50,702 nucleotides of DNA, taken from the UHGV virus genome UHGV-0140686, one strand, 5' to 3'. Position numbers: made by a program. Shown piece by piece: positions 18,001 through 21,000 of this stretch (its first letter is position 1; every line of letters starts with the position of its first letter). Origin of the DNA: a virus.

Positions 18001-21000
18001 GAATGTGGTCCTGTGGGTAATAGACACCGTGCTGATCGGCCTGGGATATAACAAAGAGCGCGAGTTATCTATGGCTGAGCTTTGCTGGTGGGCCGTCAAA
18101 TCCGGCATTGCAGATGCGATTACAGAGACGATGGCTCAACATGCCTTAAGGCTACCCGTAGAGCCTTTTCTCTCGGTCTACAAAGAAAGCGATATCGTCC
18201 CGTCATTTCCTGCGGCTGAAATGCTCCAGGATCTTGTTGAGCGCGCCTGGATTAAAGACGACACCAGGTACATCGATCCCCAGTTCCCGCAAGAAGTTCA
18301 GCCGATTCTTAGTCTTCGAATTGATCCTGAAAGCCCTGAGTCGTTTATGCTCCGCCCTAAGCGCCGGCGTTGGGAATGTCCGCAATATACCCGGTGGGTA
18401 AAAACTCAGCCATGTGAATGCTGTAGGCAACCCGCAGACGATCCACACCATATAATAGGGCATGGTCTGGGAGGTACCGCAACAAAGGCCCATGATCTCT
18501 TCGTGATACCGCTGTGCAGAGTGCATCACGATGAATTACATGCCGACGTCTCAGTATTCGAACAGAAATACGGCACTCAGTTAGAGCTGTGGGCTCGTTT
18601 TCTGGATCGGGTTATGGGTATTGGCGTCATTTTAAAAGCATGAGTGTATGGAGTGCTTAACATGAAACTTGAATCATTACCGAAATTTTATTCCCCAAAG
18701 TCACCAAAGCTTAATGATGAAACTCCGGCTACTGGGGGCACTTCACTAACGATTACGGATGTTATGGCAGCACAAGGTATGGCGTCTGCCCAGGCTCGAT
18801 TTGGCTTCAATTTGTTTCTCGCAAAAATGGGTATTCAGGATCCCGAGCCGGCTATCGAGCAACTAACCAATTACGCGATGACATTAAAGAACCCTGTAAT
18901 GTCCAAACTTTCCGAAAGTATTCGTATTGAAATGGCTTCTTGCTTAGCAACTTTTGCTTTCAATGATTATGCGCGTTCAGCTGCCAGCAAGAGCACATGC
19001 CCACAATGCAATGGGCAGCGAGTCATTCGGGAGGTAAAGGACGTTGTTAAACACCCTGGAGTGAAAGGCATCCCACCTACGATTAAACCTGAAGAGGTTG
19101 AGTCAACATGCAGTCATTGCGCAGGGAAGGGCTGGATCAGTACAGCGTGCAGGGACTGCCGTGGACGCGGCCTCGTACTCGATAAAAAACGTACTGAGTT
19201 GCATAAAGTACCTGTGCAAAAACTATGTGGACGGTGTAATGGCAAGGGTTACAGCCGTTTGCCTACGACACTGGTAAAAGATCGAGTAATACGGCTGGTA
19301 CCTGATATGACCAATTATCAGTGGTATAGCGGATATGCCGAGGTGATCAATATTCTGGTTACAAAATGCTGGCAAGAGGAGACCTTCGCTGAGCAGAAAC
19401 TGAAGGAAGTGACACGATAGCTACATTTTAATGAAAAATAGCAGCAAGATACTTGCAATATTCAAAATTATTGGGTATTGTTTTTATAACGATGGGCTTT
19501 GTATGTTCAACGTTGATTAACCCGCCAATGTGCGGGTTTTTTTATGGGCTGAAGTCACGCAATTCCGCTTCTTTTTCAATTACTTCTTGCTGGCATAGCT
19601 GACCAGAGTTATCTGTGTGTCACGCCAACTTGATAGGAAAAAGACATGCTAAATCAGCAGGATATGACGGAAACGGCCCGGGCAGTTTTCAACACTTTAA
19701 CCAACGAACCAGCAACGGCTGGGGAGATCGCCCAGAATACGCACCTGTCGCGCGAATGCTGCCAGTTGATACTGACGCAACTTGTGATGGCTGGTTTATC
19801 AGAATACGAGTTTGGATGTTATAAGCGCCCTCAGTAATGGGGACTGTTTTTAACTCTAAATAATATTATTTAAATCAATGTCTTAAGTTTTTTTTGTTTC
19901 TGACTTAAAAATAATTTCTGACATAACTCTTCAGCGATTAAGATTTTTTCACACTAAATCAGATATAGAGGTGAAAAATGAGCGTTGAAAATTACGAAAT
20001 TGATTTAAATGGTGTTGATCCAGCGAACCTGGATGCTGTTAAAGGAGTTTTGGAGTCACACTCCCATCTGTTCAAAGATTATTTCCTTGCTGGTTATGGC
20101 GGTGATGCCAGATATTCCGTTATTGATGGTACATTTGAAGTTGCCAGCATTGGAGGAGATTACTTTGAATATGAAGTTGGAATTGATTTCTTTGCTGGAT
20201 GCAAGGATATGAATGATTCCCACGAAGATACAGGGTTGATTGATTATGAAGTTAGAGATGGGCGCATTCATATTGAATTGGATGACTCTATCTGGAGACT
20301 AGATAATTAGTTGCCAGTTTAATCGTGCCGCCAGAATATCCATGGCGGCTTTTTACTGTGAAATGGGCGGCTGGTGGGTGTTGTAGCACCCAACCAGCCA
20401 TCAGCTCATGCCTTGAGGTCACAAGCTAACCAAGGCCCACTGCTTTAGCGCAAAAGCATAGTGAGCCTACCAGAGTCCTGCTTACTGATCTATGAAAAAT
20501 ACTGTAAAAATATCCAGTATTGAGTTAATCAATGCTGACTGCCTGCAATTTCTTCCATCGCTTCCAGATAACTCCATCGACTTGATCGTTACTGACCCGC
20601 CTTACTTTAAGGTGAAGCCGAACGGTTGGGACAATCAATGGAATGGGGATGATGACTATTTGCGATGGCTCGATAGTTGTCTGGCCCACTTCTGGCGGGT
20701 TTTGAAACCTTCGGGCAGCATGTATCTTTTCTGCGGGCACCGGCTGGCGGCGGACATTGAGATACTGGTCCGCGAGCGTTTTAACCTGCTTAACCATATT
20801 ATCTGGGCAAAACCTTCCGGGCGCTGGAACGGATGCAGCAAAGAGAGCCTGCGCTCATATTTCCCTGCGACGGAGCGCATCATTTTCGCCGATCATTATC
20901 AAGGGCCATATAATCCGAAAGATGATGGGTTTGCTGCTAAGAGCAATGAACTCAAGCAGCATGTCATGACTCCACTGATTTCCTATTTCCGGGAAGCCAG

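What the first reader, a model, noticed from the sequence alone, without database searches (positions are those of the whole stretch)
19646..20310. Low-GC pair after the late terminator: small HTH-like protein and a strongly acidic protein
Just downstream of tR' are a 63-aa ORF with a helix-like segment and a 110-aa protein with a net charge of about -18, separated by an AT-rich promoter-like spacer. That charge density is typical of DNA-mimic anti-restriction and anti-defence proteins, and the pair sits directly upstream of a methyltransferase.
Basis: inference. Interest (0 to 1): 0.6.

Follow-up and report, generated by a model that had tools for sequence, protein, structure and literature searches.

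The report
Acidic orphan gene inserted beside methyltransferase
A Klebsiella prophage carries a roughly 500-base insert that encodes a small, very acidic protein of unknown function; it may inhibit a host nuclease or toxin, but it matches no known DNA-mimic anti-restriction protein, and its supposed partner gene actually belongs with the neighbouring methyltransferase.

Summary
The coordinates, ORF lengths and net charge of -18 are exact. The "low-GC pair" is not a pair.

**ORF63** (winged-helix-like, PHROG_331, GC 0.50) belongs to a conserved cassette. The cassette is ORF63, a ~150-nt structured leader and an N6/N4 DNA methyltransferase. It was present in all 11 related loci inspected, behind different Q antiterminators.

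**ORF110** and its AT-rich upstream DNA (about 19849-20353) form a 505-bp moron inserted into that cassette.
- It is absent from otherwise collinear phages.
- Hairpin/T-run terminators flank it on both sides.
- A strongly conserved 60-bp upstream block lies in front of it.
- It is low-GC and under purifying selection (dN/dS ~0.2).

It belongs to a small uncharacterised family (PHROG_13663, about 30 clusters at 50% identity). Every member is about 110 aa and acidic, and F32, C75 and W106 are invariant. Members travel singly in prophage post-tR' slots, integrase/resolvase islands and small-gene arrays, next to TA, restriction and HEPN genes.

The most likely role is a stand-alone stoichiometric inhibitor, immunity- or antitoxin-like. 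This is inferred and has low confidence. Interest is moderate.

The parts
18644..19420 (+). Q antiterminator gene (context; defines the start of the late region)
   Evidence: PF03589 Antiterm, E 4.7e-42
19453..19545 (+). Late promoter-like site and terminator (pR'-tR'): TTGCAA-17-TATTGT, a conserved ACGATGGGCTTTGTATGT box, and hairpin AACCCGC..GCGGGTT followed by a T-run
   Evidence: Read from the sequence. Terminator scan. The same box and terminator occur in L001 and L035. The pR'-tR' segment of L035 matches 908 E. coli genomes.
19646..19837 (+). ORF63, a winged-helix-like protein (PHROG_331). It is the first gene of a conserved wHTH-leader-methyltransferase cassette.
   Evidence: PHROG_331 E 2.2e-29. 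TrmB and DprA_WH hits lie below the cut-off. dN/dS 0.04-0.14. The gene precedes the methyltransferase in all 11 related loci inspected.
19829..19851 (+). Weak hairpin plus T-run that overlaps the ORF63 stop codon. It marks the left junction of the insertion. The 12-nt ATGGGGACTGTT (19837-19848) recurs as ATGGCGGCTTTT at 20342-20353.
   Evidence: Terminator scan. Homology to Kp4866-6 breaks off at 19848 and resumes at 20342, with a 12-nt overlap in the subject sequence. Alignment A4.
19849..20353 (+). Inserted moron module of about 505 bp: AT-rich regulatory DNA, ORF110 and its terminator
   Evidence: Absent from Kp4866-6, E. coli 118UI, Nissle 1917, CX21 and phage Flotzy at the same site. GC is 0.25 in the spacer and 0.387 in the ORF, against 0.508 for the window.
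19893..19952 (+). Conserved non-coding block upstream of ORF110. It holds two TTTCTGAC repeats (19897, 19915) and CTGACA-15-TAAGAT (19918-19944). It is a putative promoter or operator.
   Evidence: The block is nearly invariant between loci whose ORF110 dS is 0.78. Relaxed promoter scan. Repeat search. Function is inferred.
19978..20310 (+). ORF110, an acidic 110-aa protein (PHROG_13663). The Shine-Dalgarno sequence GAGGTG lies at 19968-19973.
20327..20354 (+). Terminator hairpin GCCGCCA-9nt-TGGCGGC followed by TTTTT. It marks the right end of the moron.
   Evidence: Predicted in the MFE fold. The stem is conserved with a different loop in L004/L005. The 9-nt loop is why the scan missed it.
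20355..20491 (+). Conserved structured leader of the methyltransferase gene. It belongs to the cassette, not to the moron.
   Evidence: Nearly invariant in 8 loci. Fold z-score -3.3. No Rfam family.
20492..21541 (+). N6/N4 DNA methyltransferase (orphan type II-like)
   Evidence: PF01555 E 7.9e-40. PADLOC MTase_II E 2.3e-141.

Best explanation
**Two separate things occupy the interval.**

1. ORF63 is a small winged-helix protein. It forms a conserved two-gene cassette with the downstream DNA methyltransferase and its ~140-150-nt structured leader. The cassette sits just after pR'-tR' in many lambdoid prophages. This anatomy is shown. A role for ORF63 as a DNA-binding partner or regulator of the methyltransferase is inferred.

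2. ORF110 is a self-contained moron of about 505 bp. It consists of a conserved AT-rich upstream block, a Shine-Dalgarno sequence, the ORF and a terminator. It recombined into the terminator hairpin between ORF63 and the methyltransferase leader. This is also shown.

**The ORF110 protein.** It belongs to an uncharacterised family of stand-alone, cytoplasmic, uniformly acidic alpha+beta proteins of about 110 aa. The family moves as a single gene among prophages, islands and small-gene arrays.

**Most likely mechanism (inferred).** It is a stoichiometric protein inhibitor, comparable to an orphan immunity protein or antitoxin. It would bind a basic nucleic-acid-handling enzyme, such as a nuclease or RNase effector of a defence or toxin system, and neutralise it. 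Binding would use a conserved patch (D43-R45-Y46, G74-C75-K/R76-D77-N79, D102-E103-W106) backed by a glutamate-rich exposed sheet face. It would be expressed from the Q-dependent late transcript and possibly at a low level from its own promoter in the lysogen. It is not an Ocr- or ArdA-type DNA mimic by any test available here.
For: **Insertion anatomy**
- Homology to Klebsiella phage Kp4866-6 breaks off at 19848 and resumes at 20342, with a 12-nt repeat at the junctions.
- The alignment with three insert-free phages shows the same boundaries.
- The cassette, with identical 150-nt spacing, is present in E. coli Nissle, 118UI, CX21, 100416, A25 and phage Flotzy.
- Close ORF110 homologs (72-89% identity) always sit in the same slot.
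- GC is 0.387 for ORF110 and 0.25 for the spacer, against 0.508 for the window.
- Terminator hairpins flank the module on both sides.
- The upstream block is conserved.

**It is a real protein**
- dN/dS is about 0.2.
- The exhaustive HMMER search returned 36 representatives. After removing repeat-protein artefacts and short fragments, about 30 remain, nearly all 106-126 aa.

**Family traits**
- All members are acidic.
- F32, C75 and W106 are invariant, and a set of polar residues is conserved.
- The AF2 model has pLDDT 84.8. Its order is beta, two helices, then a five-strand antiparallel sheet.

**Stand-alone cargo in conflict-rich neighbourhoods**
- An E. coli prophage variant lies directly between tR' and the holin. 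The full variant is in 131 of 5426 genomes, whereas the pR'-tR' segment is in 908.
- Another lambdoid carries a member after its ant/Rha genes.
- Neighbours elsewhere are HicAB with an integrase and Mrr_cat with a resolvase.
- Further neighbours are MazEF, KilA-N, a C5-methylase, a resolvase and a DDE transposase.
- One member sits in an array with DpnI-like and YfbU genes.
- One lineage overlaps by 8 nt the stop codon of an upstream HEPN_RiboL-PSP gene. That locus lies beside a ResIII helicase with HA repeats and a WYL-WCX regulator.
- A second diverged locus also lies downstream of an HA-helicase.

**Fixed chromosomal copies**
- Cronobacter, Franconibacter and Atlantibacter carry a copy between ydbL and azoR. 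This fits an orphan-immunity-like gene.
Against: - No partner or target has been identified.
- The HEPN adjacency occurs in one lineage only. Two nearly identical contigs carry it, and tblastn with that HEPN protein found nothing in the other 31 metagenomic contexts.
- No toxin or nuclease gene lies next to ORF110 in the window.
- The neighbourhoods are heterogeneous, so guilt by association is weak.
- Vertically fixed chromosomal copies in three genera could equally indicate an ordinary cellular function.
- An invariant cysteine with conserved Asp, Lys and Asn could mark an enzyme or a ligand-binding site rather than a protein-binding patch.
- The family is absent from 50,697 deposited phage genomes. 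Its importance during infection is therefore undemonstrated.
- The promoter has a non-canonical 15-nt spacer and was missed by the standard scan.
Confidence: 0.35

Rival explanations
1. Classical DNA-mimic anti-restriction or anti-BREX protein. ORF110's carboxylates would imitate the DNA backbone and block the DNA-binding groove of type I R-M, BREX or similar enzymes, working alongside the adjacent methyltransferase.
For: - Net charge -18 and pI 4.09, the most acidic ORF in the window.
- Acidity is conserved across the family.
- Glutamates recur at alternating positions in the predicted strands: E54, E64/E66, E91 and E100.
- Anti-defence genes and methyltransferases are reported to cluster on mobile elements, and low MW and pI have been linked to DNA-mimic Acrs (PMC7648647).
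- DNA mimics share no common fold, so a fold mismatch cannot exclude this reading.
Against: - No sequence match to any family in Pfam, PHROG (other than unknowns), NCBIfam or PDB.
- A specific polar and aromatic motif set is conserved (C75, W106, F32, D43, D77, D102) rather than charge alone.
- The location is late-operon, after tR', whereas anti-restriction proteins act on entering DNA.
- The methyltransferase linkage is an insertion accident and is absent in the E. coli variant.
- Chromosomal copies are fixed in Cronobacter-group genomes.
Confidence: 0.12
2. Lysogenic-conversion factor acting for the host. It would be expressed from its own promoter in the lysogen. It would either exclude competing phages by sequestering one of their DNA-binding proteins, or act as an orphan immunity protein against a competitor's nuclease toxin.
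For: - Moron anatomy: a conserved upstream block with a promoter-like element, and a terminator.
- The family was found only in prophages and islands, never in 50,697 deposited phage genomes.
- Chromosomal fixation in three genera.
- A small-gene array context resembling cassette or polyimmunity arrays.
Against: - The promoter is unproven.
- The E. coli variant has no separate promoter region. It lies 45 nt after tR' and so looks Q-dependent and late.
- No PADLOC defence model matches.
- A single 110-aa protein with no enzymatic signature would be an unusual defence system.
Confidence: 0.18
3. Small-molecule-binding protein or small enzyme, for example a sponge for a signalling nucleotide or a thiol-dependent activity. 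It would use a pocket in the alpha+beta roll lined by C75, K76, D77, N79, D43, R45, Y46, D102, E103 and W106.
For: - An invariant Cys and a constellation of conserved polar residues.
- The family is conserved as a chromosomal gene.
Against: - At 110 aa the protein is smaller than typical NTF2 enzymes.
- Strong acidity across the family is not explained.
- There is no similarity to known sponges (Tad1, Tad2, Acb2) in Pfam, PHROG or BFVD.
Confidence: 0.1
4. Accessory subunit or regulator of the wHTH-methyltransferase cassette, for example modulating methyltransferase activity or ORF63 DNA binding.
For: All five close homologs sit exactly between ORF63 and the methyltransferase.
Against: - The cassette is complete and conserved without ORF110 in most phages.
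- More distant family members occur with no such methyltransferase or wHTH gene.
- The base composition differs.
Confidence: 0.04

Closest known systems
Lambdoid-phage morons (for example bor and lom of lambda, and stx cargo downstream of Q/tR' in Stx phages)
   Same: - A discrete insert that is present or absent between otherwise collinear genes.
- Lower GC than its surroundings.
- Its own terminator and a putative promoter.
- Location in the post-Q cargo slot. In this window the slot also holds a methyltransferase, a tRNA, and TerB-like and DUF3927 genes, as in the Stx-phage-like E. coli A25 prophage.
   Different: The product is unrelated to any characterised moron protein. Promoter activity is untested.
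Ocr (T7 gp0.3) and ArdA DNA-mimic anti-restriction proteins
   Same: Small, phage- or MGE-borne, single-gene proteins with pI around 4 and a high Asp+Glu content.
   Different: - No sequence or profile match.
- ORF110 is in the late region, not early.
- It has a positionally conserved Cys/Trp/Asp motif set.
T4 Dmd (phage antitoxin against the HEPN toxins RnlA and LsoA) and orphan immunity or antitoxin proteins in general
   Same: - A stand-alone small phage protein that could neutralise a toxin by direct binding.
- One family lineage is translationally coupled to a HEPN_RiboL-PSP gene.
- The family is acidic and travels as a single gene in mobile and polyimmunity-like contexts.
   Different: - No sequence similarity.
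- The HEPN link occurs in one lineage only.
- No toxin lies next to ORF110 in the window.
- From my own knowledge, Dmd is a 60-aa early protein.
NTF2-like, VirB8-like and cystatin-like alpha+beta rolls
   Same: Helices packed on a curved antiparallel sheet. The order of elements (an N-terminal strand, helices, then a hairpin-rich sheet) resembles cystatin.
acr-aca (anti-CRISPR plus HTH regulator) operons
   Same: A small HTH gene next to a small acidic gene on a prophage of an Enterobacteriaceae host (PMC7648647).
   Different: - The order is reversed, with the HTH gene upstream.
- The HTH gene is conserved with the methyltransferase, not with ORF110.
- ORF110 relatives elsewhere lack it.
- No motif match in that paper's supplementary files.

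Membership tests
Moron (phage accessory transcription unit) | Present in some phages and absent from closely related collinear phages at the same site | tested here: met
   Absent in Kp4866-6, 118UI, Nissle, CX21, Flotzy, 100416 and A25. Present in L002-L005.
Moron (phage accessory transcription unit) | Base composition different from the flanking genes | tested here: met
   GC 0.25 (spacer) and 0.387 (ORF110), against 0.50 for ORF63, 0.49 for the methyltransferase and 0.508 for the window.
Moron (phage accessory transcription unit) | Own terminator downstream | tested here: met
   GCCGCCA-9-TGGCGGC followed by TTTTT at 20327-20354. The stem is conserved with a different loop in L004/L005.
Moron (phage accessory transcription unit) | Own promoter upstream | tested here: inconclusive
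   The standard scan found none. A conserved block holds (C/T)TGACA-15-TAAGAT with non-canonical spacing. Transcription was not measured.
DNA-mimic anti-restriction proteins (Ocr, ArdA, Arn and similar) | Sequence or profile membership in a known family | tested here: not met
   No Pfam hit for ORF110, and no recurrent hit for the 32 relatives scanned. PHROG hits are to unknown families only. There are no NCBIfam or PDB sequence hits.
DNA-mimic anti-restriction proteins (Ocr, ArdA, Arn and similar) | Fold similar to a solved DNA mimic | tested here: not met
DNA-mimic anti-restriction proteins (Ocr, ArdA, Arn and similar) | Surface carboxylates spaced like DNA phosphates, and competition with DNA for the target enzyme | not testable with these tools
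Only the net charge (-18) and alternating Glu residues in strands are known.
Type II antitoxin or immunity protein | Encoded next to, and co-transcribed with, a cognate toxin | tested here: not met
   No toxin gene is adjacent in the window. The feature is met only in one distant lineage, where a HEPN_RiboL-PSP gene overlaps by 8 nt. ORF110 would have to be an orphan.
PHROG_13663 (unknown function) | Full-length profile match | tested here: met
   E 2.9e-28, residues 3-107 against profile positions 4-109 of 111.
TrmB / winged-helix transcription regulators (ORF63) | Pfam match above the gathering threshold | tested here: inconclusive
   TrmB scores 20.0 bits against a cut-off of 25.6. DprA_WH scores 20.2 against 22.9. 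Six further wHTH families give weaker hits. PGAP labels homologs as TrmB family. PHROG_331 E 2.2e-29.
acr-aca operon | Small inhibitor gene upstream of a dedicated HTH regulator that recurs with different inhibitors | tested here: not met
   The HTH gene is upstream and recurs with the methyltransferase, not with ORF110.

The most novel reading that the evidence does not exclude
The ORF110 family (PHROG_13663 and its relatives) would be a previously unrecognised class of stand-alone neutraliser proteins with a new alpha+beta fold variant. It would inactivate HEPN-type or other nuclease effectors of abortive-infection or toxin systems. Lambdoid prophages would deploy it from the Q-dependent late operon to survive late-acting defences. 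The same protein would serve as a cognate antitoxin in helicase-HEPN-WYL defence loci and as an orphan immunity gene fixed in Cronobacter-group chromosomes.
Probability: 0.15. Interest if true: 0.65.

Novelty: new member of a known kind. Interest (0 to 1): 0.35.

Why it matters
**If ORF110 is a counter-defence or immunity protein**
- It would add a new family, with no homology to known inhibitors, to the anti-defence repertoire of Klebsiella, Escherichia and Salmonella prophages.
- It would show that the post-Q late-operon cargo slot, the site that carries Shiga toxin genes in Stx phages, also carries inhibitors.
- It would give a handle on whichever host effector it targets.

**Independently of function**
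- The analysis corrects the picture of the locus. The wHTH gene, a highly conserved structured leader and the methyltransferase form a widespread cassette whose regulation is itself unstudied.
- The acidic gene is a later insertion into that cassette.

**If ORF110 has an ordinary cellular role**
- The finding is a routine hypothetical moron.

Tried and rejected
**Searches that failed or were unavailable**
1. The search for related loci with the broad alignment A2 failed because no stretch was conserved enough.
2. Genome contigs scanned with the close alignment A1 found no relative in 185,579 species representatives.
3. The afdb50 fold library was not available.

**Results that were discarded**

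5. The large repeat proteins returned by the exhaustive HMMER search (P0017, P0030-32) are artefacts. P0017 looks like a translated tandem DNA repeat and P0032 is a haemagglutinin-like repeat protein. They were excluded.

**Leads that did not hold up**

6. Generalising the HEPN link was rejected. The HEPN protein occurs only in L013 and L014, and the ORF 'upstream' of P0056 is low-complexity and probably spurious.
7. Rfam has no family for the spacer or the methyltransferase leader. The Trp_leader hit at pR'-tR' is below the gathering score and reflects the terminator.
8. The TTTCTGAC repeat is not enriched elsewhere in the window: 5 sites, and 3 of 100 shuffles reach that number. It is not found upstream of distant family members.

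**Literature and remaining database checks**

9. Accession, PHROG id and peptide-motif searches found nothing. No motif was found in the anti-CRISPR paper's supplements.
10. No PADLOC defence model matches ORF63 or ORF110.
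Full report
**Observation.**
- The window is a lambdoid prophage of Klebsiella pneumoniae. The exact ORF110 and ORF63 proteins are deposited from K. pneumoniae and Raoultella genomes as 'hypothetical protein' and 'TrmB family transcriptional regulator'.
- ORF63 (19646-19837, 63 aa) and ORF110 (19978-20310, 110 aa) exist exactly as described.
- ORF110 has 16 Asp, 9 Glu, 3 Lys and 4 Arg, giving net -18 and pI 4.09. It is the most acidic of the 221 ORFs of >=60 aa in the window.
- Upstream lie a DUF968/HNH gene and a Q antiterminator (PF03589). After these come TTGCAA-17-TATTGT and a hairpin with a T-run at 19519-19545, so 'downstream of tR'' is a fair description.
- Downstream lie an N6/N4 methyltransferase (20492-21541) and a tRNA-Thr.
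- The 'low-GC pair' is only half true. ORF63 has GC 0.50, which is the window mean. Only the 140-bp spacer (0.25) and ORF110 (0.387) are low.

**Anatomy: two units, not a pair.**
- Klebsiella phage Kp4866-6 is collinear with the window through pR'-tR' and ORF63. It then jumps straight to the methyltransferase leader.
- Homology stops at window 19848 and resumes at 20342. A 12-nt sequence that occurs once in Kp4866-6 is present, slightly diverged, at both junctions in the window.
- E. coli 118UI, Nissle 1917, CX21, 100416, A25 and phage Flotzy show the same insert-free arrangement. In five of them a 192-198-bp wHTH gene is followed after exactly 150 nt by the methyltransferase. In Flotzy the small gene is annotated as 153 bp and lies 62 nt upstream.
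- This holds even though their Q genes belong to different families.
- The 137 nt before the methyltransferase start (20355-20491) are almost invariant across eight loci and fold significantly better than shuffles, with z = -3.3.
- ORF63, this leader and the methyltransferase are therefore one conserved cassette.
- ORF110 and its AT-rich upstream DNA (about 505 bp, 19849-20353) are an insertion into that cassette.
- The insert is bounded on the left by the weak hairpin and T-run that overlaps the ORF63 stop codon. It is bounded on the right by GCCGCCA-9nt-TGGCGGC followed by TTTTT at 20327-20354.
- Four IMG/VR prophage contigs carry ORF110 homologs (73-89% identity) in exactly this slot.

**Regulatory DNA of the insert.**
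- Between loci whose ORF110 coding sequences have dS = 0.78, a non-coding block at 19893-19952 is nearly invariant, while the DNA on both sides of it has diverged.
- The block holds two TTTCTGAC repeats 18 bp apart.
- It also holds CTGACA-15-TAAGAT, which reads TTGACA in two of the loci.
- The standard consensus scan found no plus-strand promoter, and a 15-nt spacer is atypical. Promoter function is therefore plausible but unproven.
- A GAGGTG Shine-Dalgarno sequence precedes the ATG.

**The protein family.**
- ORF110 has no hit in Pfam, NCBIfam, PADLOC or PDB sequences. It matches PHROG_13663 (unknown function) at E 2.9e-28.
- A word-indexed search of 5.8 billion proteins found eight close clusters.
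- An exhaustive HMMER profile search of 1.84 billion representatives returned 36 hits. About 30 are genuine, and nearly all of these are 106-126 aa. The large repeat proteins among the hits are artefacts.
- Both ORFs are under purifying selection.
- All 58 relatives examined are acidic, with net charge from -7 to -21.
- Across 32 diverse members F32, C75 and W106 are invariant. D43, Y46, G74, D77, D102 and E103 are conserved in >=80% of members. R45, K/R76 and N79 are conserved in about 65-75%.
- With the 32-sequence alignment AlphaFold2 gives a confident model (pLDDT 84.8, pTM 0.72). The order of elements is strand, two helices, then a five-strand antiparallel sheet.
- Foldseek against BFVD finds nothing significant.
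- A profile search of PDB sequences is also empty.

**Genomic contexts of relatives.**
- A 31%-identical E. coli/Shigella variant (WP_000606308-like) lies 45 nt after a homologous pR'-tR' and before the holin. It is followed by a strong terminator and has no methyltransferase nearby.
- The full E. coli unit is in 131 of 5426 complete genomes, whereas the promoter-terminator segment alone matches 908. It is therefore an accessory insert there too.
- Another lambdoid carries a member after its ant/Rha genes.
- No member is found by tblastn in 50,697 deposited phage genomes.
- More distant members sit beside HicAB and an integrase, or beside Mrr_cat and a resolvase.
- Others neighbour MazEF, KilA-N, a C5 methylase, a resolvase or a DDE transposase.
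- One lies in a unidirectional array of small genes that includes DpnI-like and YfbU genes.
- In one groundwater lineage the gene overlaps by 8 nt the stop codon of an upstream HEPN_RiboL-PSP gene. That locus lies between a ResIII helicase with HA repeats and a WYL-WCX regulator. A second, 66%-identical member also lies downstream of an HA-helicase.
- The HEPN partner does not recur elsewhere.
- In Cronobacter, Franconibacter and Atlantibacter a 24-31%-identical member is a fixed chromosomal gene between ydbH-ynbE(-ydbL) and azoR-hrpA.

**Interpretation.**
- The anatomy is shown: a moron inserted into a wHTH-methyltransferase cassette.
- The function of ORF110 is not shown.
The charge is real. 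The adjacency results from the insertion.
- No fold or sequence test links ORF110 to Ocr, ArdA or any other known mimic.
- Late-operon placement suits anti-restriction poorly, and a fixed polar motif set suggests a specific site.
- Because DNA mimics have no common fold, the idea is weakened rather than excluded (about 0.12).
- I prefer a broader reading at about 0.35: a stand-alone stoichiometric inhibitor, immunity- or antitoxin-like, of a basic nucleic-acid-handling effector.
- Five observations support that reading. The family is uniformly acidic. Members move as single genes through conflict-rich neighbourhoods. One lineage shows toxin-like coupling to a HEPN gene. Some members sit in arrays resembling orphan-immunity loci. 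Chromosomal copies are fixed in three genera.
- The rivals are a lysogenic-conversion or exclusion factor (0.18), a ligand-binding protein or small enzyme using C75 (0.10), and an accessory of the methyltransferase cassette (0.04). The remainder is an unrelated cellular function.

**Comparison with known systems and novelty.**
- Structurally the unit is a textbook lambdoid moron in the post-Q cargo slot, the slot that holds stx, tRNAs, methyltransferases and TerB/DUF3927 genes in Stx-like phages.
- The protein is a new, uncharacterised family. Literature searches by accession, PHROG id and motif found nothing. It is absent from the anti-CRISPR candidate sets checked.
- I rate it 'new member of a known kind' and of moderate interest. 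It is a clean, testable candidate, but there is no positive functional evidence.

Noticed in passing
window 22700-23445, minus strand: An acr-aca-shaped unit lies antisense to the late operon, just upstream of the holin. Its promoter region carries two palindromes (TTCCTAGTTATTAGGAA and TTTCCTAACAACTAGGAAA). Next comes a very acidic small ORF (72 aa from TTG 23386, more likely 52 aa from ATG 23326; net -8; second most acidic ORF in the window). This is followed by a 130-aa HTH protein (23123-22731; weak HTH_3/YdaS hits; PHROG_12690/3626, unknown function) and a hairpin terminator. The small ORF matches no PHROG or NCBIfam family. By architecture it is a better anti-defence candidate than ORF63/ORF110.
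   Followed up: partly
window 20355-20491: The leader between the moron terminator and the methyltransferase start is almost invariant across eight phages whose methyltransferase proteins differ by up to 24%. It folds into a strong hairpin (GGCGGCTGGTGGGTG...CACCCAACCAGCC) plus a second domain, with z = -3.3. No Rfam family matches. It may be a cis-regulatory RNA or a small RNA of the wHTH-methyltransferase cassette.
   Followed up: partly
window 19646-19837 plus 20492-21541: The 63-aa winged-helix gene and the N6/N4 methyltransferase form a conserved cassette behind at least three different Q antiterminator types in Klebsiella and E. coli prophages and in phage Flotzy. In five E. coli prophages the spacing is exactly 150 nt. 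The role of the wHTH protein is unknown.
   Followed up: partly
window 21532-21607: A tRNA-Thr (anticodon TGT) overlaps the last 10 nt of the methyltransferase ORF. The E. coli A25 relative carries tRNA-Ile, Arg and Arg at the same place, as Stx phages do.
   Followed up: no
window 21918-22492: A TerB-like gene (PHROG_632, 'tellurite resistance') overlaps a DUF3927/TciB-like 51-aa gene (PHROG_1470). The same pair follows the methyltransferase and tRNAs in E. coli A25, ahead of a SASA/NanS-type esterase. It is a recurrent cargo pair of the post-Q slot.
   Followed up: no
window 19453-19545; L001 and L035: The pR'-tR' region shares a conserved box, ACGATGGGCTTTGTATGT, between the promoter-like hexamers and the terminator in three phages with PF03589-type Q. 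It is probably the Q-loading or pause region. The Rfam Trp_leader hit here (25.7 bits, below the gathering score) just reflects the terminator.
   Followed up: no
L013 1-5783 and L033 (metagenomic contigs): A candidate defence-like locus reads: a ResIII/DEAD helicase with eight HA repeats, a 149-aa protein, a HEPN_RiboL-PSP protein, an ORF110-family protein (8-nt overlap) and a WYL-WCX regulator. A second locus has an HA-helicase, an unrelated 175-aa protein and an ORF110-family protein.
   Followed up: partly
L023 1272-2141 (E. coli Nissle 1917 prophage): In Nissle 1917 the slot between Q and the wHTH gene holds a different moron, annotated 'SDH family Clp fold serine proteinase', plus a 68-aa hypothetical protein. 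This shows that the slot is a cargo hot-spot.
   Followed up: no
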